A stretch of DNA of 20,000 nucleotides, taken from Fistulifera solaris. Taxonomy: Eukaryota. A program made the position numbers and the translations under genes. The first letter of the stretch is position 1, and the number at the start of each line of letters is the position of its first letter. The notes below the pieces were generated by a model, which saw only the letters and a list, made by a program, of their open reading frames with translations, was not told where the DNA came from and searched no databases. The stretch lies in contig AP026131.1 in assembly GCA_030295235.1 (NCBI GenBank), positions 1,470,475-1,490,474 on the forward strand. The letters are read 5' to 3'. This document shows positions 1,629 through 20,000 of the stretch, piece by piece.

Positions 1629-4600
1629 CTAGAAAACCCCCAAAGCCGTCCGGGCACCTCCCTTTTCCAAGAGCTGAATGACGGCTCGTTTCTTGTCCTC
1701 TGACATTTCCACATCTTCTAAGGACTTCAGCAGTACGGCAACTTCTTTTTCTTTTTCTAAGTATTGAAACAAAATCTTCGCCAACTTTTCTTTGGGTAGT
1801 GACATAATGAAAGTCGTTCCTTCCTTGTACACCATTTTCGCGGCTAAAGCAGAGCTAATCGCATTTTTAATGTATTGCTTCGGGACTCTATCGTGCACTC
1901 GATCAAAGGCTAGATCAGCAATCGTCTTTGGTAAATGCATTTGAAACAGAGGCAAAAGAGCTTCCTGATCTGCTTCCGACAAAGAATCCAACGCAAGAGT
2001 CAGCGCATCGGTGGCCGCATTGATACAGTTACTAATGACCTGAGAAATTTCGGGAAGCGAACCTCCGTGTGCCTCATATTCACGAAACAGAAGCTCCGCT
2101 TCCAGTTTGGCCAGCATGCGCAGCTTTTCCAACACTTCTTGCACAATTTGAGCCTTGTTGGCAACAAATTCTTCTTCCGACAACAGCATGGCAGCACAAA
2201 TCTCGTACGACGATGTTATCACACCGCCCTTGTTGGCCGATGAATCTTTGACAATAACGACGCCGGCATCTTGAAAGAGCGAATTTCTGGCGTCTTTTGT
2301 GATGAAAAGATTGGCTCCTTCCACAATGAGCGGTGCTGACGGACGTCCATCTGCCATAATAAAGTTCTTGTAATTGGAGCAATCAATCGTATTCGGACGT
2401 CCTCCGCATGGCAGGAATGCATCTGCTTGAAGTCGATTGTGCATCGTGTTGCGTGCTTTGGTTCCTTCAGGAGTGTCCGTTGTGTGCAATTTGCCCGACG
2501 GTCCGAGCTTAGTCGCGTCGAAATAGGAAATGCAAAGTGCCGAACTGACTAGTCGCAACAGCTCGTCGTGGTTCAGTCCATCCGGATCTTCTGCGCAACC
2601 GGAGTGGTCCGCAATGCCGACAATCTTAACATTTTCACCATATTCACGAACCAAAATTTTGATTTCATTGCCCGCAACATCTCCATCCGGACCGCCCGTC
2701 ATCTTTACAGTGAAAGAGTTCTTTTCTGGATCGATTCCCAGCACGCGGCGAAGTGCGGTATCTAGATACACATTGACGCCTTCGCTTGTTACACCGAATT
2801 GTTTGTGATTGATCCCCGCCCTCGGCTTGCTGCTCATAAAAGCAGCTGGTGTGTTGTACCCTCGCTCCGAGGCTCGCTTCACAATCCATTCAATGTCCCC
2901 CGGAATGATCTGCTCGTCCGGACCCAAATAAAGAACTTCTGGTCGGCCTAAGCGATCAATAACAAACCTTTTGGTCTCCTCGGTTTCTACGATAAGATCC
3001 AAAATGGTATCAGTGAATGCTTTGACCGATTTACGCATCACAAAGTATTTGCCAGAATCGTTCAATCCTGTTGTATTGATCAGCGCAACGGCTTTGGAAC
3101 CTCCCTCGGGGCTGAGTTGGAAAAGCGTGGTTAGGATATTGCTACAACAATAAGTAAAAACTAGGATTTCGTACTTACATATCTTTGTTTTTTAGTTGTT
3201 GCGCAAATGCCAACCCATAGCATTCGTCGTATTGCCGAGCTGATTCCAGAGCATACAATTCCGTGTTGGCGGGTGTCACCAATCGCAGTCCTCCTCGACT
3301 GATATCACGGAATCGTACGTGAAAGCCGTTAAAACGACGACCGTGAACGAATAATACTCCAAACGGCAATTCAGCAGCATTTCCCGGTTCATGCATGACG
3401 GAAGGATCAAGCCGAAGACCCAATGCGTAACGATTTGGCATGTAGGCGTTCGTTTTTAGAGTGCGATCCACAATTTCAAGCATTTTGCTCAAAATCGAGG
3501 TAGCTACCTGATCCTCTACTTCCTTGGAAATCATTTGCGTCAGATCATCACGTCTACTTTGATACGATTCGCCACTCAAAGGATGATCCGGATGAAATCG
3601 ATCGAGAAACAGGTCAGCAATCAATGCTGCATGGCCGATGTGTTGATGCACAACTTCGGCAATATTCGCTTTCGAATACGCCATCGTATTAATCTTGGTC
3701 AACACTGGATGGATCAAGGAGCACATGGCCGTAATCACTTCTCCACGCGCAATTCCCAACCAAGGCTCTTTGCCAAACACCAAATCGACTGTATCCGGGT
3801 CCAACCATTTTGCGCGTTTAAGTTCTTGCGCCAATGTTTGCCAATCCGTCGTGGCATCGGCCGACAACAACGAGGTGGGGCTGATCAACGTCCGCAAAAT
3901 CGTTACACTCCCGTTTTCACCATCCGGCACAATATCCAAACGTGCCCGCTGCACATCAAACTTGTGATGGTACAGCAACTGACACAGATTCTCCAATGCG
4001 ACTTGCGGAATACTGTTCGCGACCGCCATTTCGACCCAATACAGCGGTCCACTCGTTGGTAAATGCATTTCGGGCGTTTGATCGGTCGCCAACCCAATGT
4101 GTACCGCCACTCCTTCGGTCCCCGAGACTTCCGCAAACAACAACCGCTGCATACAAAATCGCGCCGGATTCATAAGACCAATTTGCACGTATGTCGGCCG
4201 ACACATTTTCATGTATTCGACCAGCGATTCTCTTTCCAATAAAGGCGACAACGGCAATTCTTCATCTACCACAATCCCCTGCTGCACATTGGCCGCATAC
4301 TCTAAAATTGGTTCCGCCAAGGCCATGACGTCCATGTCGACATCTTCATCGTGTACGGGTCGATGCCCGTACACAAACATATTCAAGCTCATCGTTTCAT
4401 CCACGGTCGAAAAGACGTGCAATCGACTGAGGGGCATTTCGAGACTGTACTTGTACGGCAATTCTTGCACCATGTGCAACAGCGTACCGGGAGCGGTGCC
4501 GGGACGAATGAACGTCAAGACGGTACGACCATCGAGCGTATGCGATTTGAGATTGAGATAGAGGTCCATATTCGCATCCTTGACGGCCGCAATTGCTTTC

Positions 4601-5055
4601 ATGTGATCCATGCGGTATCTTTCGGGGACTTGTTGAAAGTAGCTGCATAATAGTGAAGGGATTAAATGGTGAGATAGATGTCAAATATAGCGAATCTCAC
4701 AGGAAAACAAAATACGTAACAAATACACTAGCAACATAATCTCACTCTCTTCACGCTCGTTACTTACACTGCCGGCATATTTTCAAGAAACCACGGTACG
4801 ACCGATTCAATTGTTCGTGTTTGTTCATGGATCAATTCATATATCATGGCTTTTTTGTGTGACACGTTGCACTTCGACGTTGTGAGAAGCTTGCCACGCT
4901 TTCTCGGGGGAAAGAGACGTTGGTGTTTCTCCTAAACTTCCGTATTGATGCGACATGCCCGGAATGCGGTACGTGTCATTCTTCGATGTGAAGACTCGAC
5001 GTTGGTTTGTCACTAGACGACGTGACGACGTCGTTAATTTCAACCACAATGTCAT
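1629..5055 (-). CDS. GDH2: Large NAD-specific glutamate dehydrogenase (GDH2 type, ~1077 aa). Exons 5055-4768, 4642-3179, 3111-1629; one extra base in the T6 run at 4851-4856
   Basis: Motifs GFHVRFRDISRGGLR, QQLKNKDIPEGGSKAV (rebuilt exactly by splicing the GTAAGT..CAG intron 3178-3112), YLGPDE, HKQFGVTSEGV, TGGPDGDVAGN, PCGGRP, IVEGANLF and KDSSANKGGVITSSYE. Intron 4767-4643 (GTAAGT..CAG) joins PWFLENMPAV-YFQQVPERYRMDH in frame. The N-terminus MTLWLKLTTSSRRLVTNQRRVFTS resembles a mitochondrial presequence. Confidence 0.93.
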
Positions 5056-7321: not shown

Positions 7322-7837
7322 CGTGATGAAACGTGTTTGTTGTAGCGTTGTTATTTTCGAAGGCTGTTGGGTCAAAGGTCCAAGCGAAGAAGTCATCAAA
7401 TCATTGTTCATCGGAAGAGGGGGAAGATACTGTATCTTTTGTTAGAGACTGAAGCACACGCAGAAGGGCGTCTGGCGTCTGACCGCATAGGCACGTCCCA
7501 TTTCTTCAAAACCGCTCCGATTCGTTCATGTTCTTCATAATCCAGTACGATTTCTACATACGTGACGTCTCCGTAGGATGATGTAACCTTACCAGTTCCG
7601 CATGGCGCGCCTCCGAATTCGGAAAATGGCGGAGCGCTTCGTTTTTCAAAGAACAAAAATCGCAACAATTCTGATTTCTCATTGTCACGAAAGGAAGGAA
7701 TCACTTACTTTATGCTTCGCGTTGTCTTTCTCCCATTCTTTTTCATTGATAAGCTTTAACTGCAATTGAATTGACTGCAAAGTTCCTTCAAAAGCCCCTC
7801 TTTTGCCGTACCTACAAAAAAGAAAGAAGCTATCATC

Positions 7838-9715
7838 ATGACACGTTCGATGGTCGTTGTTTCGGATCATTTTCATTTCAGTCATTTTACCTGGAAGGCT
7901 TCCCCGCAGGATTCGGAAGAAGAGACGACATCGACACCTTTGAAGTTGTCGTCTCCGCCACCGCAAGACATTAAATTGAAACTGTATTCGCGCATTCTTC
8001 ATGATGACGAAAACAACATTCATTTCGGAAAATGGGATCGTGTTTCGCTGGAAGAGAAAGATGCGTATTCACAAGCGGCGCATCGCATGACTGACTATAT
8101 GTACAACGATTTGGCCATACAACTGATTCCGGAACATCGTCGTAATGCCAGCGACTTTCAATACATTGATTTGGGGAGCGGGACAGGAGCGAGTGCCTTG
8201 CGAATTGCTTCCCAATGTACGTTTCCGGGCAAGGTTGTGTGTTTGAATGTATGTCCGCAACAGAACCGCATTGCGCAACGCGCGGTCGCACAAGCCAACT
8301 TACAACAAACGATTCAAATTATGGAAGGCGATTTTGAGCAAATGCCGTTTGCCGAGAATGCCTTTGATGTGGCCTTTTCGCAAGATGCCTTCATTCATGC
8401 GCGCCGCAAACTGCAAGCCTTTCGAGAAGCCTTTCGTGTTGTCCGACCTGCGGGTGCCTTTGTCTTTTGCGATGTCATGGCGGGACCCATGACGACGGAC
8501 GAACAAGTCGAACAACTCTCCAGAGACAATGCCATTTCGAATTTGATGCGTCCGCACGAAACAGTCCAAGCGATGCAAGAAGCGGGTTGGAAGGACGTCC
8601 ACTCGATCAATGTCACGAACGATATGCGGATTAGTTTTCAACTCATGCTACAAAAAGTGCACGCGAGCTTGGAGACGCATCAACAGGATCGCGATTTGTT
8701 AGAGTTGTACCGTCAGCAGATTCAGACGCGCATTGATCAAATTGATCGTGGTATCATTCAGTGGTGTGTGTTTCACGGTCGCAAGCCCGTCGTACTGCAA
8801 ATGTTGTGTCGACCGCCTTTTCCCTTGGTGAATACTTCGGAATTGATTGTGGTAAAAGAACAAGACAACGACCCGACGTCACAAGATCCGTCCATTGTGG
8901 TGGTGGACATTTTGACGCCCATGCCCCGCGCGAAAGTTGAAGCTTTGCCTTCTTCGGTGTCATTGTTGATTACCATGAGTGCCGGACTTGATCACATTGA
9001 CATGGCAGCGTGTCACGAACGCAATATTACAGTGCAACAGGCCGGTCGTCGCGCCATTACATCCCACGTCGCCCAATACGGATTGGCGTTGATTGTGTTG
9101 GGATTGCGGGATGCTTTGTCGCAACAACAGGTTCCGTTTCCATCACAGGGATGGAATTTGACGTGGAATATTCCGGGAAAGCCTCTCGAGGAATCGAAGA
9201 TTGCATTGATTGGTATGGGAACGATTGCGAAAGAATTGGTGCGTCAAATTCGTTGTTTGGCTCCCACCGCCGAAATTCTGTATCATGCCCGATCTCGTCA
9301 TGAAACGGCGGAAGCCGAATATCATTTGCAATATTATGATGATTTGAAGGAAATGGCGTCCCATTGTGATATCTTAGTACCATTGTGTCCTTTGACCGAT
9401 CAGACTCGCAATTTGATCAATGCCGATGTGCTTTACCATTTACCGACGCACGCCGGATTGTTGAATCTGTCTCGCGGCGCCGTGGTCGATACGGAAGCTC
9501 TGACGCATGCTTTAGAAGCGAAGCAGTTTCGGTACGCCATTTTGGATACGACGGCTCCGGAACCTTTGCCGAAAGATCATCCCTTGTGGTCGTTGCCGAA
9601 CTGTTTCATCTTTCCGCACTTTGCCACCAACACTATGGCTGTTCGTCGTGCTTTGGTAGATGACATTCAGCCTTTAGTTGAAGAGTATTTTGGTCTGACA
9701 TGCAGTGATGTGTGA
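7838..9715 (+). CDS. Fusion protein (625 aa): class I SAM methyltransferase of the sarcosine/dimethylglycine-MT / DSYE-like family plus D-isomer-specific 2-hydroxyacid dehydrogenase
   Basis: N-half: NIHFGKW, YIDLGSGTG (motif I), FDVAFSQDAFIH, RVVRPAGAFVFCDVM, QWCVFHGRK. C-half: SAGLDHID, IGMGTIA (Rossmann), PLTDQTRNLI, NLSRGAVVD, LDTTAPEPLPKDHPLWSLPNCFIFPH. One uninterrupted ORF; the exact start codon is uncertain. Confidence 0.92.
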   Translation: MTRSMVVVSDHFHFSHFTWKASPQDSEEETTSTPLKLSSPPPQDIKLKLYSRILHDDENNIHFGKWDRVSLEEKDAYSQAAHRMTDYMYNDLAIQLIPEHRRNASDFQYIDLGSGTGASALRIASQCTFPGKVVCLNVCPQQNRIAQRAVAQANLQQTIQIMEGDFEQMPFAENAFDVAFSQDAFIHARRKLQAFREAFRVVRPAGAFVFCDVMAGPMTTDEQVEQLSRDNAISNLMRPHETVQAMQEAGWKDVHSINVTNDMRISFQLMLQKVHASLETHQQDRDLLELYRQQIQTRIDQIDRGIIQWCVFHGRKPVVLQMLCRPPFPLVNTSELIVVKEQDNDPTSQDPSIVVVDILTPMPRAKVEALPSSVSLLITMSAGLDHIDMAACHERNITVQQAGRRAITSHVAQYGLALIVLGLRDALSQQQVPFPSQGWNLTWNIPGKPLEESKIALIGMGTIAKELVRQIRCLAPTAEILYHARSRHETAEAEYHLQYYDDLKEMASHCDILVPLCPLTDQTRNLINADVLYHLPTHAGLLNLSRGAVVDTEALTHALEAKQFRYAILDTTAPEPLPKDHPLWSLPNCFIFPHFATNTMAVRRALVDDIQPLVEEYFGLTCSDV

Positions 9716-9947
9716 GCCACTTTTTGGAAAATAGATAGCCCAATAGATAAGGGCACTGCATAAATCTCTTATAGACAAAAACATTACATGATGCTTGTTT
9801 CAGTTAAATCAGTTGTAACCTTACGTAGTATTCATTAGAGCGGCCTACGACCGCAAAGGAAACGCAAAAACTAATGATTTGATTGTATTTACTTTAGAAG
9901 GCGAGTTAATGGTTAACCATCCACAGAAATTACCACGGAATTGCTCG

Positions 9948-10736
9948 TCACGAACGGTGGGGTTCGAATGGAGAATCTTCGTTGCGCAAGAGGAAGGACT
10001 CTTTTGAAGTTATCGTGCGGAATCTGGCATCTAAATATTTGTGTTTCTGATAAGGAGTGTCTTTCTTTTTGTGTGTGCTGCGTTTAGGTACATACATCTT
10101 GCTTGGAGAAGTCTCTACATCGGTAGCCATCCAAACACCGGCGTATTGATCCCAAGAATACCCTTTCGGGGCTTTCCCCGGTGGCCGTGTCACAGTCCCG
10201 TCCTTGTTCAGCATAAGGAGGCGCTTGGATTTACGAAACATGGTGGGTGTAGTCTTTGCCAACTTTATTGAGGTCGGTCGTATTTTCCGATCCTTGTTGG
10301 ACTTTCTCGTGTTCTTCTTTGTTTTCGGCAAGCTCTTTTTGTTGGCGGGTTCCTGTTCCGGCGAATGCAGCATCGCTAGTGAATCCATTTGTTGCAGAAG
10401 TTGCTTTGGAATGCCCGAGAACATCTTTTGAGTTCCTACCGATCTCGTAGTGGGACGTTGCAATTTCGGAGGAGACTTTCTTTTCGGCGTTGACACGCTC
10501 GGAGGTTTTCCTTTCGAAGAGCGTGCCTTTTTGGCTGGGTTGATCTTCCGTTTCGAAGGATTTGTCTTTTTTACTGGACTGCTCTTTCGCGGTGCTTTTC
10601 GCGGCATCTTGTACCATTCATTGTGAATCGGATCCCAGGCATGGTCTTTCGGGGCACGTCCTTTGGGTTTAGGAAAAAGATGACATGCTCTTGATATCGT
10701 TGATGACCCACGCGCTTGCGGAGGACGCGAGGACAA
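9948..10736 (-). CDS. Lys/Arg/Pro-rich hypothetical protein, probably nuclear, with two P-x-G-[RK]-A-P-K-x3-W-D-x5-W motifs; 5' end unresolved
   Basis: 262-codon open frame with a duplicated motif (PKPKGRAPKDHAWDPIHNEW and RPPGKAPKGYSWDQYAGVW). The frame opens with TTG; an upstream ATG (MKDKEAAAGDSGDEK, ~10783) is in another frame. Confidence 0.65.
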   Translation of the reverse strand: MSSRPPQARGSSTISRACHLFPKPKGRAPKDHAWDPIHNEWYKMPRKAPRKSSPVKKTNPSKRKINPAKKARSSKGKPPSVSTPKRKSPPKLQRPTTRSVGTQKMFSGIPKQLLQQMDSLAMLHSPEQEPANKKSLPKTKKNTRKSNKDRKIRPTSIKLAKTTPTMFRKSKRLLMLNKDGTVTRPPGKAPKGYSWDQYAGVWMATDVETSPSKMYVPKRSTHKKKDTPYQKHKYLDARFRTITSKESFLLRNEDSPFEPHRS

Positions 10737-11421: not shown

Positions 11422-13411
11422 TTACATCAAAGCAAGAAGCCATAAGGCCACGGAAGCGCCAGTCGCGAGGCGGAACGAGTGACTACTCTCCTCGGTGGTT
11501 CCCTCGTCGACGACGGGCTGGCAGTCGGCCAAATCGGCAAAAGGAACCGTCTCACAGGGCGGCAATGGCGGGACCATCCAGAATCGTATTGACGATACCA
11601 CCTTTGGGGCACGCTTTCTTGGTCGAAAAGTAACTGAAGGAACCCACGGCTCCACGAAGACACGGCGGTGCAAACGGAGGATCGACGGTCATGTAGTAAC
11701 CGTAATTGCCCGCGCTGTCTTCCTTTCCATTGCATTCATCCAAATCGTACGGCGCATCAACTGTCCTTGATCATCGTGAAATACCGAAAATGGGGAAACC
11801 ATCGCGCGCCCATCCAATGACCGGACTGGCGGGGCCCGTCGCAGGGAACTGGTTGGGCATGTCGGCGTACTCACGAACCTGATCCCCATCTTTCCACCAG
11901 TCGGCACTTTCGGCAAATTCCATTCCGAGCGATTCCAAGAAGCATTTCGGAGGAAGGTGGTAATGATACTGGTGCTTCTTGTCCGAATGCCCATTGCAGC
12001 TGTCATAACTCCAAGTCGGCTTGTGACTATCGAGCAAAATGCCGTTGGTCATGACACCCACCACATCGTCATCTTTCAAGTAAGTTGGTTCGCCCGGAGT
12101 GCCTGGTTCGGAAGGAATGACCATGGTGTAATGCTGATACATCGGATCATAGGTACCATGTGATTCAGTGTGACAGGCGCCACATCCCCCGCACGATGCA
12201 CCACAACCGCCACATCCCCCACAGCCACCACATCCCCCACAGCCGCCACATCCACCCGCGCAGCATCCAGTCGAGTTGGAACCGCATCCGGCCGCACAGC
12301 ATCCAGCACCACATCCGTCAGTCGCATTGGCACCGCAAGAAGCATCGCAGCCCTGCAAGAACCGGTTCGCACTGGCCGCGTCGCATCCAGCCGAACAAGA
12401 GCCACAGCCCGCATCGCATCCAGCCCCGCATCCCGCCGAGCAAGAGCCACATCCGGCGTCGCATCCAGCCCCGCATCCCGCCGAGCAAGATCCACAACCA
12501 GCGTCGCATCCGGCACCAGAGCAAGCTCCACAGCCAGCGTCGCAACCAGCCGAGCAGGATCCACAGCCCGCCGAGCAAGATCCGCATCCGGCCGAGCAGG
12601 ATCCACAGCCCGCCGAGCAAGATCCGCATCCAGCACCACATCCCGCCGAGCAAGATCCGCAACTTGCGCCGCAAGATCCACATCCGCCACCACATCCAGC
12701 GCCACAGGCTCCACACGAGCCGCAAGCCCCACATCCACCTTCACTGCTGGATTCATTTTGACCCGGAATCACGAAATCACCTTGCGGGTTCGCGACCGTT
12801 CCGGTGCTTCCTTGCATATTCGTATGATCGGGACACCCGTTGCTTTCAATCACCATCGAATCGGCTTGCACGGTCACCACAACATCGGAACGGAAACAAT
12901 AGTTGTTCGCTTCGAGATTGGGTTGCGTCGCATCTTCACAAACCACTTGATGCGTCGGTGCTCCTTGATAGTAAGAATCGTCCCAAGTATCTTGAATCGT
13001 TGCCTCAAACGCCAACGGATATCCGGCATCACTGGTTTCCGCGAGCGCTTCATCGTATTGTACCACAACTTTCGGAAACGGACCCGCCGTTTGACTTTCG
13101 ATATACTGTACAGTCGTCGCTTGCGATGCATTGCCGGCCAATTCGAGCAAAATGGAATGAATACCGTCACTATCGGGCGTTTCACTCAACAAGACGTATC
13201 CCGATTCGACACATTTAGGCAACAATTTGCACCAGCCCGTGTGCAGTTGCGGAGTATAAAAGACGTTGATGCCATCGGGGGCACACGGGGCCGTCGGAGA
13301 TGCACCCGTACACAACGCAATGCATTGCTTGTCAATCAAATAGCCCGACAACTCGGCGGCGAGTGTCGTAGAAAACAAGAGAACGCTCAAGAAGATCGAT
13401 TTCATCATCAT
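11422..13411 (-). CDS. Secreted YHYH-domain protein with a Cys/Gly-rich insert and GPI-like C-terminus (~662 aa after correcting three 1-bp indels at ~11780, ~11751 and ~11558)
   Basis: Signal peptide [23 protein letters not shown]-family motifs [48 protein letters not shown] and [16 protein letters not shown]-terminal [22 protein letters not shown] lies in ORF 11422-11673. Confidence 0.85.
12173..12739 (-). repeat. Coding low-complexity repeat: (GCGSCSA)n, GCDA/GCGA and (GGC)n units; 50 Cys in 189 aa
   Basis: Counted from the translation of ORF 11771-13438. The 21-nt units (e.g. CCGAGCAAGATCCGCATCCGG on +) vary at synonymous third positions. Confidence 0.95.
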
Positions 13412-13479
13412 GTTTTTGCGAGATTTGTGTGTTGTCAAAGGAAATCAAATAATCAAATCAATCGTTTCAAAATTGGTCA

Positions 13480-19656: not shown

Positions 19657-20000
19657 TAGGGTTAGGGTTAGGGTTAGGGTTAGGGTTAGGGTTAGGGTTA
19701 GGGTTAGGGTTAGGGTTAGGGTTAGGGTTAGGGTTAGGGTTAGGGTTAGGGTTAGGGTTAGGGTTAGGGTTAGGGTTAGGGTTAGGGTTAGGGTTAGGGT
19801 TAGGGTTAGGGTTAGGGTTAGGGTTAGGGTTAGGGTTAGGGTTAGGGTTAGGGTTAGGGTTAGGGGTTAGGGTTAGGGTTAGGGTTAGGGTTAGGGTTAG
19901 GGTTAGGGTTAGGGTTAGGGTTAGGGTTAGGGTTAGGGTTAGGGTTAGGGTTAGGGTTAGGAGTTAGGAGTTAGGGTTAGGGTTAGGAGTTAGGGTTAGG
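19657..20000 (+). repeat. Telomeric (TTAGGG)n array, ~57 units, G-rich strand running to the window end
   Basis: Read directly; a few TTAGGGG and TTAGGAG variants in the distal part. Confidence 0.99.

What the first reader, a model, noticed from the sequence alone, without database searches (positions are those of the whole stretch)
7838..9715. Methyltransferase + D-2-hydroxyacid dehydrogenase fusion: candidate two-step DMSP-synthesis enzyme (MTOB reductase + MTHB S-methyltransferase)
Seen: one intact ORF joins an SDMT-family SAM methyltransferase (~7970-8790) to a D-2-hydroxyacid dehydrogenase. The catalytic Arg (NLSRG), Glu (APEPL) and His (FPHF) are all present. The strand after GMGTIA ends YHARSR with no acidic residue, which suggests NADPH use. 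Known: the algal transamination route is Met -> MTOB -> D-MTHB (NADPH-linked reductase) -> DMSHB (SAM S-methyltransferase: DSYB, TpMMT, DsyG/DSYE) -> DMSP. From memory, some diatom DSYE proteins were described with a predicted reductase domain, so the architecture may not be new; this needs verifying. Inference: a D-specific reductase fused to the next enzyme fits the poorly assigned MTOB reductase step, with possible channelling. Alternative: a glycine-betaine N-methyltransferase fused to a glyoxylate/hydroxypyruvate reductase.
Basis: partly seen in the sequence, partly recalled or inferred. Interest (0 to 1): 0.82.

Follow-up and report, generated by a model that had tools for sequence, protein, structure and literature searches.

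The report
Methyltransferase–reductase fusion, candidate DMSP enzyme
A diatom gene joins a relative of the only proven diatom DMSP methyltransferase to a reductase of the kind that sits beside the bacterial DMSP methyltransferase gene, so it is a strong, testable candidate for two consecutive steps of DMSP synthesis, one of which has no known enzyme.

Summary
Window 7838-9715 (+) is one intact 625-aa ORF: an N-terminal SAM methyltransferase (MT) and a C-terminal D-2-hydroxyacid dehydrogenase (DH) with Arg546/Glu575/His594 and no acidic residue after strand beta2. One contig runs 7801-9793 without a gap and ends in 23 non-templated A's.

The MT domain belongs to the TpMMT superfamily (42% identical to the T. 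pseudonana protein). It is not DSYE/DsyG and not a betaine N-methyltransferase.

The DH domain is specifically related to the 2-hydroxyacid dehydrogenase gene that lies directly downstream of dsyGD/dsyG in 3 of 3 bacterial loci. It is the top hit in each genome, at about twice the score of the next paralogue.

Most diatom orthologues add a C-terminal class II aldolase-fold domain. Some unnamed relatives also add an N-terminal Phe/Leu-type amino-acid dehydrogenase. These four chemistries match Met -> MTOB -> MTHB -> DMSHB -> DMSP.

The window protein is a derived two-domain form. It most likely acts as MTOB reductase plus MTHB S-methyltransferase (confidence about 0.55). No enzyme assay exists, and the Gynuella reductase candidate was inactive in vitro. 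The large "TpMMT-like" proteins were noted in print in 2022 as being of unknown function.

The parts
7801..9793 (+). Extent of the longest colinear contig that ends in non-templated A's: putative intronless polyadenylated mRNA (5' UTR at least 37 nt, 3' UTR 78 nt)
   Evidence: read laying: the X2 contig covers 7801-9793 with no gaps and has a loose end of 23 A. The genome after 9793 reads CTTGTTT. The X3 contig covers 7807-9767, and three X4 pieces cover 7818-9747. The RNA nature of these runs is the tool's guess, and all four runs belong to one study.
7838..9715 (+). Coding sequence, 625 aa plus stop. This is the first ATG of the contig-supported transcript.
7856..8794 (+). TpMMT-superfamily SAM-dependent methyltransferase domain (residues 7-319)
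   Evidence: Family HMM envelope 7-319 at 438 bits. Pfam PF08241 covers 111-210. It is 42% identical to the T. pseudonana single-domain protein.
8168..8188 (+). SAM-binding motif I, D111-L-G-S-G-T-G117
   Evidence: D111, L112, G113, S114, G115 and G117 are invariant columns in alignment A1.
8795..8821 (+). Conserved structured linker (residues 320-328, ...LCRPPFP...)
   Evidence: P327, V328, P329 and F330 are invariant or nearly invariant in A2. The model has a strand at 318-322 and pLDDT of about 90.
8822..9712 (+). D-2-hydroxyacid dehydrogenase domain (residues 329-625), of the dsyG-linked subfamily
9212..9229 (+). Dinucleotide-binding motif G459-M-G-T-I-A464 (GxGxxA)
   Evidence: G459 and G461 are present in 52 of 52 domains; Ala at position 464 in 37 of 52.
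9281..9298 (+). End of strand beta2, Y482-H-A-R-S-R487: no acidic residue, with basic R485 and R487 (NADP(H)-type signature)
   Evidence: R or K at position 487 in 52 of 52 domains. The stretch aligns with GRHPR 'YTGRQPR'.
9473..9475 (+). Catalytic Arg546 codon
   Evidence: 52 of 52. Aligns with the Arg of GRHPR 'NISRG'.
9560..9562 (+). Catalytic Glu575 codon. Formate dehydrogenases have Gln here (recalled).
   Evidence: 52 of 52
9617..9628 (+). Catalytic His594 and the subfamily motif H-F-A-T (IFPH[FIM]ATN)
   Evidence: H594, A596, T597 and N598 are present in 52 of 52 domains. The motif is shared with 3 of 3 dsyG-adjacent 2HADHs and with 0 of 14 other 2HADHs.

Best explanation
The ORF encodes an expressed, intronless, probably cytosolic bifunctional enzyme of the transamination route to DMSP.

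- **Reductase step (inferred).** The C-terminal D-2-hydroxyacid dehydrogenase domain, probably NADPH-preferring, reduces 4-methylthio-2-oxobutyrate (MTOB) to D-4-methylthio-2-hydroxybutyrate (MTHB).
- **Methylation step (inferred).** The N-terminal TpMMT-family SAM methyltransferase domain S-methylates MTHB to DMSHB.
- **Family context.** The protein is a secondarily shortened member of an algal family. Its usual diatom form adds a C-terminal class II aldolase-fold, three-His domain, a candidate O2-dependent DMSHB decarboxylase. Its longest forms also add an N-terminal Phe/Leu-type amino-acid dehydrogenase, a candidate for Met -> MTOB.

**Shown here:** the architecture, the intact catalytic and cofactor motifs, the contig with a poly(A)-like tail, the phylogenetic placement of the MT domain, and the specific kinship of the DH domain with the dsyG-linked reductase genes.

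**Inferred:** the substrates, the cofactor preference, the order of reactions and any channelling.
For: 1. **MT placement.** In a 49-row maximum-likelihood tree rooted on SDMT-like proteins, the MT domain lies inside a 29-row clade (support 100/100) made of 17 fusion and 12 single-domain proteins. Diatom single-domain proteins, including the T. pseudonana one, are sister (98/90) to the diatom fusion clade that holds the window. DsyG/DsyGD lie in the next group out, and SDMT-like proteins outside that.
2. **Identity of the T. pseudonana protein.** P0186 is 100% identical to P0200, named 'methyl transferase-like protein [T. pseudonana CCMP1335]'. It is 68% identical to a Cylindrotheca homologue and 42% identical to the window. 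This matches what Li et al. 2022 say of TpMMT: about 70% single-domain homologues, Cylindrotheca 0.71, and larger relatives below 50%.
3. **No conserved-site divergence.** Across 49 fusion and 77 single MT domains, 58 columns are at least 90% conserved with the same residue. Only 2 are conserved but different, and those are I/L and I/V.
4. **The reductase partner recurs.** In 3 of 3 bacterial loci found with Gynuella DsyGD (Gynuella sp., Caldora sp., Nodularia harveyana), the gene directly downstream on the same strand is a 2HADH.
5. **The partner is specific.** In each of those three genomes that 2HADH is the best match to the window DH domain (149-151 bits). The next paralogues score 74, 81 and 54 bits, out of 15 matches in all. 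The diatom DH-family HMM gives these three 181-193 bits, against 69-112 bits for 14 other 2HADHs. The motif IFPH[FIM]ATN occurs in 3 of 3 of them and 0 of 14 of the others.
6. **Longer relatives.** P0245 (1131 aa) has ELFV_dehydrog, MT, 2HADH and Aldolase_II in that order. Its N-terminus matches L-Phe dehydrogenase 1c1d at E 2.5e-21.
7. **Precedent for the aldolase-fold domain.** The domain of orthologue P0073 matches NovR decarboxylase (E 1.5e-15) and TqaM (E 5e-11). Both are three-His iron enzymes that oxidatively decarboxylate 2-hydroxy acids with O2, and TqaM accepts only 2R substrates (passages).
8. **Convergent fusion.** A DsyG-side MT is fused to a different 2-oxoacid reductase family, PanE/ApbA, in P0266.
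9. **Intact DH domain.** Catalytic residues are intact and the cofactor site is NADP-type.
10. **The step is unassigned in print.** No algal MTOB reductase is named in the papers searched.
Against: - No member of the fusion family has been assayed.
- Wang et al. 2024 report that the predicted MTOB reductase next to Gynuella dsyGD did not show the expected activity as purified protein under their conditions (passage).
The window MT is only 42% identical to TpMMT, below their 70% rule.
- Many diatoms carry a single-domain TpMMT-type gene next to the fusion gene (locus tags and gene numbers). This raises the question why two MTs are needed, and it allows a different substrate for the fused one.
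- The fused MT domains lack the conserved N-terminal 30-odd residues of the single-domain proteins (HMM coverage starts near position 34 in most).
- The window lineage has lost the aldolase-fold domain, so the pathway would need another decarboxylase.
- That P0200/P0186 is TpMMT is inferred. I saw no accession number.
- The DH profile also scores human GRHPR fairly well (158.7 bits).
Confidence: 0.55

Rival explanations
1. Same two-step logic but a different substrate. The DH domain reduces some other amino-acid-derived 2-oxo acid, and the MT domain methylates that D-2-hydroxy acid, giving an unknown osmolyte or secondary metabolite. TpMMT next door would do the DMSP step.
For: - The fusion MT is a paralogue of the single-domain clade, not an orthologue, at 42% identity.
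- Both genes coexist and are adjacent in several diatoms: SGBAC_008525/6, ACHAXR_013456/7 and Cylindrotheca scaffold6350 genes 4/5.
- The N-terminal lid region differs.
- The amino-acid dehydrogenase domain of P0245 is closest to Phe and Leu dehydrogenases, which does not point to Met in particular.
Against: - No conserved-but-different residue separates the fused MTs from the single ones, apart from I/L and I/V.
- The DH partner is the one linked to proven MSM genes in bacteria.
- The sequence deamination, reduction, methylation, oxidative decarboxylation is, to my knowledge, described only for DMSP.
Confidence: 0.25
2. The MT domain is an MTHB S-methyltransferase, but the DH domain acts after it. 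It would oxidise DMSHB to the 2-oxo acid as part of the decarboxylation, or serve another redox step, rather than making MTHB.
For: - 2HADHs are reversible.
- The Gynuella neighbour showed no MTOB reductase activity.
- In the three-domain proteins the DH domain sits between the MT and the aldolase-fold domain.
Against: - DsyGD alone converts MTHB to DMSP without the neighbouring 2HADH (paper passages).
- The cofactor site looks NADP(H)-type, which is usual for reductive roles.
- The window form keeps the DH domain although it has lost the aldolase-fold domain.
Confidence: 0.08
3. A glycine/sarcosine/dimethylglycine N-methyltransferase fused to a glyoxylate/hydroxypyruvate reductase.
For: - The best named NCBIfam MT model is SDMT (72 bits), and JGI labels some relatives that way.
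- The best solved relative of the DH domain is GRHPR.
Against: - The SDMT score is 72 bits against a cut-off of 550. The proven S-methyltransferase DsyGD scores higher on that model (153 bits).
- The tree puts SDMT-like proteins outside.
- GhrB scores 98 bits against a cut-off of 492.
- GRHPR's HIGSAT is replaced by HFATNT.
- Glyoxylate reduction is not a step towards glycine betaine.
Confidence: 0.03
4. A formate dehydrogenase (as one orthologue is named in NCBI), or an inactive relic.
For: - The top NCBIfam hit is NAD-dependent formate dehydrogenase (117 bits).
- The Skeletonema orthologue carries that name.
Against: - The score is below the cut-off of 329.
- Glu575 is kept in 52 of 52 domains.
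- The ORF is intact, it is 79% identical to its nearest relative, and one contig carries a poly(A)-like tail.
Confidence: 0.02

Closest known systems
TpMMT, the MTHB S-methyltransferase of Thalassiosira pseudonana (Kageyama et al. 2018; paper not held, known to me through Li 2022 and Wang 2024)
   Same: Same MT superfamily clade (100/100). 42% identity over 267 residues. 58 strongly conserved positions are shared. Found in diatoms.
   Different: TpMMT has a single domain of about 310 aa. The window protein carries a fused reductase, lacks the conserved N-terminal segment, and belongs to the sister clade, not the TpMMT clade.
[quoted passage not shown] 2022 (mLife, PMC10989797)
   Same: Very likely the same family. 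They are described as having an MT domain below 50% identity to TpMMT, extra domains and a much larger size (passage). A Fistulifera fragment, P0133, is 73% identical to the window MT.
   Different: That paper gives no domain names and no function, and it excluded them from analysis. I did not see those two accessions themselves.
dsyGD/dsyG with its downstream 2HADH gene (the 'predicted MTOB reductase' of Wang et al. 2024)
   Same: A proven MSM-type MT is paired with a 2HADH of the same subfamily as the window DH domain. The bacteria use an operon where the alga uses a fusion.
   Different: In bacteria these are separate genes. DsyG is only 28% identical to the window MT. The bacterial decarboxylase is a cupin-like DsyD (PF04115), not an aldolase-fold domain. 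The Gynuella reductase was inactive in vitro.
Human GRHPR and bacterial GhrB glyoxylate/hydroxypyruvate reductases
   Same: Best solved relatives of the DH domain (E 3e-29). Same catalytic triad and an NADPH-type loop. Same fold.
   Different: Below the GhrB cut-off (98 bits against 492). A different motif follows the catalytic His. The window domain is fused to an MT.
TqaM and NovR/CloR, class II aldolase-fold three-His iron oxygenases. This bears on the orthologues' third domain, not on the window protein.
   Same: The aldolase-fold domain of orthologue P0073 matches them (E 5e-11 and 1.5e-15), and the HxH...H residues are kept. They perform O2-dependent oxidative decarboxylation of (2R)-2-hydroxy acids.
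   Different: The best PDB hit of that domain is an uncharacterised protein, 3ocr. The window protein has no such domain.

Membership tests
TpMMT-type MTHB S-methyltransferase (MSM) | Class I SAM methyltransferase with motif I | tested here: met
   PF08241 at E 4.5e-19. DLGSGTG is invariant in A1.
TpMMT-type MTHB S-methyltransferase (MSM) | Falls inside the clade of single-domain TpMMT orthologues | tested here: not met
   The window is in the sister clade (fusion clade 100/100, single-domain clade 93/92, union 98/90).
TpMMT-type MTHB S-methyltransferase (MSM) | At least 70% identity to TpMMT and a single-domain structure (the working rule of Li et al. 2022) | tested here: not met
   42% identity and two domains.
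TpMMT-type MTHB S-methyltransferase (MSM) | SAM-dependent methylation of MTHB to DMSHB | not testable with these tools
   Needs an enzyme assay.
DSYE / DsyG S-methyltransferases | Groups with DsyG/DsyGD in a tree | tested here: not met
   Gynuella, Caldora and Nodularia DsyG(D) form a separate clade outside the 29-row TpMMT superfamily. Identity is 28%. No labelled DSYE sequence was available.
Sarcosine/dimethylglycine (betaine) N-methyltransferases | NCBIfam NF041675 equivalog score of at least 550, and tree placement | tested here: not met
   72.1 bits. SDMT-like rows (243-346 bits) lie outside.
D-isomer-specific 2-hydroxyacid dehydrogenase superfamily | Both Pfam domains plus the catalytic Arg/Glu/His | tested here: met
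   PF02826 at 140.7 bits and PF00389 at 27.6 bits, both above their cut-offs. R546, E575 and H594 are aligned to GRHPR.
dsyG-linked 2HADH ('predicted MTOB reductase') | Closer to the dsyG-adjacent 2HADH than to other paralogues of the same genomes; shared motif | tested here: met
   Top hit in 3 of 3 genomes at about twice the bits of the next paralogue. HMM scores are 181-193 bits against 69-112, and the IFPH[FIM]ATN motif occurs in 3 of 3 against 0 of 14.
dsyG-linked 2HADH ('predicted MTOB reductase') | NADPH-dependent reduction of MTOB to D-MTHB | not testable with these tools
   Never shown for any member. The Gynuella protein was negative in vitro (paper passage).
GhrB / GRHPR glyoxylate-hydroxypyruvate reductase | NCBIfam equivalog cut-off | tested here: not met
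   98.1 bits against 492.
NAD-dependent formate dehydrogenase | NCBIfam cut-off; Gln in place of the catalytic Glu (recalled) | tested here: not met
   116.6 bits against 329. Glu575 is present.

The most novel reading that the evidence does not exclude
The family is a modular 'DMSP synthase'.

- Its four-domain members would carry the whole Met -> DMSP route on one polypeptide. A Phe/Leu-type amino-acid dehydrogenase would replace the long-assumed aminotransferase, and its NAD(P)H would be re-used by the fused MTOB reductase.
- A class II aldolase-fold three-His iron oxygenase would be the missing algal DMSHB decarboxylase.
- The single-domain TpMMT would be a split-off piece of such a fusion.
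- The window protein would be the two-step core, MR plus MSM. It would explain DMSP synthesis in diatoms that lack DSYB, DSYE and TpMMT.
Probability: 0.35. Interest if true: 0.92.

Novelty: new variant of a known kind. Interest (0 to 1): 0.8.

Why it matters
DMSP is made at billions of tonnes a year and feeds the climate-active gas DMS (abstracts). In algae only the S-methylation step has known enzymes: DSYB, TpMMT and DSYE. The reductase, the decarboxylase and the first step are unassigned. A 2026 review names none, and the searches found none.

This locus and its relatives give concrete, clonable candidates for up to three missing steps. They also supply an independent argument that the 2HADH beside bacterial dsyG is a real pathway partner. 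If confirmed they would provide new marker genes for predicting DMSP producers from omics data.

Tried and rejected
- **Aldolase II domain or second MT gene in the window.** tblastn with three-domain and single-domain relatives found only the ORF itself. A six-frame scan with the aldolase-domain HMM gave 1.1 bits at best.
- **Whole genome.** None is held. I could not ask whether the organism encodes the aldolase-fold domain, TpMMT, DSYB or DSYE elsewhere.
- **Locus searches.** The search for related loci in genome contigs with the MT alignment found nothing. In metagenome contigs with the whole protein it gave 12 distant prokaryote-like 2HADH loci and no diatom orthologue. The adjacency of TpMMT-type and fusion genes therefore rests on locus tags, gene numbers and equal contig lengths, not on DNA I read.
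- **Sequencing runs.** No RNA holder is listed. The four runs are 'RNA?' by the tool's guess and come from one study. The lack of cover on the flanks in X2-X4 is not used as evidence.
- **Fold searches.** Foldseek against PDB and the ESM Atlas returned only generic 2HADH folds, with nothing new for the MT domain.
- **GDH-like neighbour.** The gene at 1629-4611 (-) looked like a possible link to the amino-acid dehydrogenase domain of P0245. BLASTP shows no similarity, so the idea was rejected.
- **P0071-type proteins.** Their N-terminal region of about 360 aa has no Pfam match at E 0.1.
- **Papers and supplements.**
  - The Kageyama 2018 paper is not held, and no paper links TpMMT to a THAPSDRAFT id.
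  - Paper reading answered 'closed' when I asked for the supplements of PMC9213524. Co-expression of the Skeletonema orthologue with TpMMT under low salinity was therefore not checked.
  - Supplementary Table 3 and the FASTA file of Wang 2024 could not be read. They may list domain structures or accessions that bear on the DSYE/TpMMT comparison.
- **Earlier findings.** The search of earlier findings returned nothing.
Full report
**Observation.** The window holds one intact ORF at 7838-9715 (+) of 625 aa.
- Pfam finds a class I SAM methyltransferase (PF08241, residues 111-210, E 4.5e-19) followed by both halves of a D-isomer-specific 2-hydroxyacid dehydrogenase (PF00389 at 349-451; PF02826 at 437-596, E 4.1e-41).
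- No NCBIfam equivalog cut-off is reached. Formate dehydrogenase scores 117 bits against 329, GhrB 98 against 492, and sarcosine/dimethylglycine N-methyltransferase 72 against 550.
The stretch after GMGTIA (459-464) is Y482-HARSR-487 opposite GRHPR's YTGRQPR, with no acidic residue.
- In 52 distinct DH domains of the family, Arg546, Glu575 and His594 are invariant. Position 487 is always Arg or Lys, and the third glycine of the dinucleotide motif is Ala in 37 of 52.
- An AlphaFold2 model built on 43 family sequences is confident (mean pLDDT 85.2, pTM 0.79). Only residues 1-5 and 20-48 are disordered.

**Transcript.** Four coded runs of one study hold the stretch.
- One contig (X2) covers 7801-9793 with no gap and then carries 23 A's. 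The genome continues CTTGTTT at that point. This is what a poly(A) tail looks like.
- It fits an intronless mRNA whose first ATG is 7838 and whose reading frame ends at the stop seen in the genome.
- The tool only guesses that these runs are RNA, so this is a hint and not proof of expression.

**Family and architecture.**
- The whole protein finds 108 relatives at E <= 1e-3. Nearly all that are named come from diatoms: Amphora, Seminavis, Cyclotella, Thalassiosira, Skeletonema, Cylindrotheca and a Bacillariaceae MAG. One comes from Chromera velia.
- Five of five proteins of about 840-900 aa that I scanned have the order MT, 2HADH, class II aldolase/adducin domain.
- Among the 243 proteins on hand at that stage, 40 were MT-DH-AL, 39 MT-DH (many are fragments), 130 MT alone, 1 MT-AL and 2 DH-AL.
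- The window has no aldolase-fold domain in any frame.
- In the trees, the window and its two closest relatives (79% and 68% identical, both ending just after the DH domain) form a fully supported clade. That clade is nested among three-domain proteins, so the two-domain form is a secondary loss.

**The methyltransferase domain.**
- *Nearest single-domain relatives.* Searching with residues 1-330 finds many single-domain diatom proteins of 303-320 aa at 40-47% identity. One is 'methyl transferase-like protein [Thalassiosira pseudonana CCMP1335]' (P0200, a truncated model).
- *Why I take this protein to be TpMMT.* P0186 is its full-length twin (100% over 228 residues). It is 68% identical to the Cylindrotheca protein and 42% identical to the window. 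This fits what Li et al. 2022 write of TpMMT:
  - single-domain homologues at about 70% identity in 17 of 82 diatom transcriptomes (Cylindrotheca closterium 0.71 in their Table S3);
[quoted passage not shown] I saw no accession number, so the identification is an inference.
- *Tree.* I built a 49-row maximum-likelihood tree with rows picked by hand: 17 fusions, 12 singles, 3 DsyG(D), 6 SDMT-like and 11 other hits. It was rooted on the SDMT-like rows.
  - All fusions and singles form one clade (100/100).
  - Diatom singles (93/92) are sister to diatom fusions (100/100), and the union has support 98/90.
  - DsyG/DsyGD and some unnamed proteins form the next group out. SDMT-like proteins lie outside that.
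  - Fused forms also occupy the deepest branches of the clade, so the single-domain enzyme may itself derive from a fusion.
- *Conserved sites.* Between 49 fused and 77 single MT domains, 58 columns are at least 90% conserved with the same residue. Only two are conserved but different (I/L and I/V). The fused domains lack the conserved N-terminal segment of the single proteins.
- *The SDMT model does not discriminate.* The window scores 72 bits, a TpMMT-type protein 81, and the proven S-methyltransferase DsyGD 153.

**The dehydrogenase domain.**
- An exhaustive HMMER search of 1.84 billion representatives with the MT domain gave 6180 hits at E <= 1e-3 and 20 at E <= 1e-30.
- One hit is a 494-aa protein with PF08241 at 76-175 and PF04115. 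Its cluster holds the Gynuella sunshinyii protein. Its length, domains and coordinates match the published description of DsyGD (passage).
- With it I fetched three bacterial loci: Gynuella sp. (94% identical), Caldora sp. SIO3E6 (46%, DsyGD type) and Nodularia harveyana (56%, DsyG alone).
- In 3 of 3 loci the gene directly downstream on the same strand is a 316-345-aa 2HADH. The other neighbours differ between loci.
- These three proteins are 33-34% identical to the window DH domain (151-156 bits).
- The diatom DH-family HMM scores them at 181-193 bits. It scores 14 other 2HADHs at 69-112 bits: 11 metagenome loci retrieved by similarity to the window plus 3 proteins. L012 was left out because its match was too short.
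- The motif IFPH[FIM]ATN after the catalytic His occurs in 3 of 3 of the dsyG-adjacent proteins and in 0 of 14 of the others.
- Searching the three whole genomes with the window DH domain gives 15 matches. The dsyG-adjacent gene is first in each genome (149-151 bits), and the next paralogues score 74, 81 and 54 bits.
- Against all solved structures the family profile's best 2HADH is GRHPR at 158.7 bits, then 128 bits. This was a different profile, so the figures are only roughly comparable.
- The reductase partner of an MSM-type methyltransferase is therefore the same subfamily in a gammaproteobacterium, in two cyanobacteria and in diatoms. In bacteria it is a neighbouring gene and in diatoms a fused domain.

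**Longer relatives.**
- The same search revealed proteins of 1131-1234 aa. P0245 has ELFV_dehydrog, MT, 2HADH and Aldolase_II in that order. P0248, P0249 and P0255 have an N-terminal region of about 350-420 aa without a Pfam match, followed by the same three domains.
- The first 317 residues of P0245 match Rhodococcus L-phenylalanine dehydrogenase (E 2.5e-21 over residues 9-282) and leucine dehydrogenases. The GGxK lysine is aligned.
- The aldolase-fold domain of orthologue P0073 best matches an uncharacterised protein (3ocr) and adducin. It also matches 'Decarboxylase NovR' (E 1.5e-15) and TqaM (E 5e-11), and it keeps the HxH...H metal ligands.
- CloR/NovR are three-His non-heme iron enzymes that convert a mandelate-type 2-hydroxy acid to the acid one carbon shorter, using O2 (passages of PMC13111500).
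- TqaM has the class II aldolase fold and three His ligands, uses one O2, and accepts only 2R-configured 2-hydroxy acids (passages of PMC13351049).
- D-2HADHs make (R)-2-hydroxy acids (established knowledge).
- The four domain chemistries are amino acid -> 2-oxo acid, 2-oxo acid -> (R)-2-hydroxy acid, methylation, and oxidative decarboxylation. They reproduce Met -> MTOB -> MTHB -> DMSHB -> DMSP as drawn in Wang et al. 2024 (figure legend), except that a dehydrogenase stands where an aminotransferase is assumed.
- A further, independent fusion joins a DsyG-side MT to a PanE/ApbA-family 2-oxoacid reductase (P0266, 693 aa).

**What this means for the window.** The most likely function is MTOB reduction followed by S-methylation of MTHB. 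The product DMSHB would be decarboxylated by something else. [quoted passage not shown]

**Against this reading.**
- No fusion protein has been assayed.
- The Gynuella reductase candidate lacked the expected activity in vitro.
- Identity to TpMMT is modest.
- Many diatoms keep a TpMMT-type gene right beside the fusion gene: consecutive locus tags SGBAC_008525/6 and ACHAXR_013456/7, Cylindrotheca scaffold6350 genes 4 and 5, and equal contig lengths in four more pairs. The fused MT could therefore have another substrate.

I put the DMSP reading at about 0.55, another substrate with the same logic at 0.25, and the remaining alternatives well below 0.1 each.

**Comparison with what is known, and novelty.**
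- DSYE and TpMMT are described as single-domain.
- The large TpMMT-like proteins were noticed but set aside as being of unknown function.
- Searches for the accessions, for 'TpMMT-like', for 'MTOB reductase', for DMSHB decarboxylase with diatom, and for MTOB/MTHB/DMSHB/reductase since 2023 found no paper that assigns them a role or names an algal MTOB reductase. A 2026 review names none (passages).
- The thing is thus a new, uncharacterised variant of a known kind of enzyme. The comparative argument makes several missing steps of a globally important pathway directly testable.
- Supplements that might bear on this could not be read.

Noticed in passing
window 19657-20000: The window ends in 56.7 copies of TAGGGT, a TTAGGG-type telomere repeat. 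The fusion gene therefore lies about 10 kb from a chromosome end.
   Followed up: no
window 11771-13438 (-): A 555-aa ORF starts with a signal-peptide-like N-terminus and ends in a YHYH domain (PF14240, E 8e-11). A long Cys/Gly/Ser/Ala repeat region (CGSCSAG-type units) sits in the middle. It corresponds to the G+C-rich tandem repeats at 12180-12697.
   Followed up: partly
window 1629-3065 (-) and 3175-4611 (-): Two 478-aa ORFs lie 109 bp apart. Both match large NAD-glutamate dehydrogenase models (ELFV_dehydrog at E 8e-32, and Bac_GDH_CD). They are probably one gene with an intron. They are unrelated to the amino-acid dehydrogenase domain of the four-domain relatives.
   Followed up: partly
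window 9948-10736 (-): A Lys/Pro/Ser-rich 262-aa ORF with no Pfam match runs convergent to the fusion gene. Its end lies 155 nt beyond the putative poly(A) site.
   Followed up: no
P0266 (693 aa; its 90% cluster has 7 members, on contigs up to 308 kb): This is an independent fusion of a DsyG-side methyltransferase with a ketopantoate-reductase (PanE/ApbA) family domain. In the tree it is sister to a Paulinella micropora protein. It may be another case of MSM plus 2-oxoacid reductase.
   Followed up: partly
P0245, P0248, P0249, P0255 (1131-1234 aa, unnamed sources): These four-domain proteins run amino-acid dehydrogenase-like N-terminus, MT, 2HADH, aldolase-fold domain. P0071, P0069 and P0075 look like fragments of the same type. 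Their organisms are unknown.
   Followed up: partly
P0073 (545 aa, MMETSP transcript): This relative has the MT and the aldolase-fold domain but no dehydrogenase domain, and it groups with the Chromera velia three-domain protein. Domain shuffling in the family is therefore frequent.
   Followed up: no
P0186 (EukProt record labelled Alexandrium tamarense): It is 100% identical over 228 residues to the Thalassiosira pseudonana protein P0200. This is probably diatom contamination of that data set.
   Followed up: no
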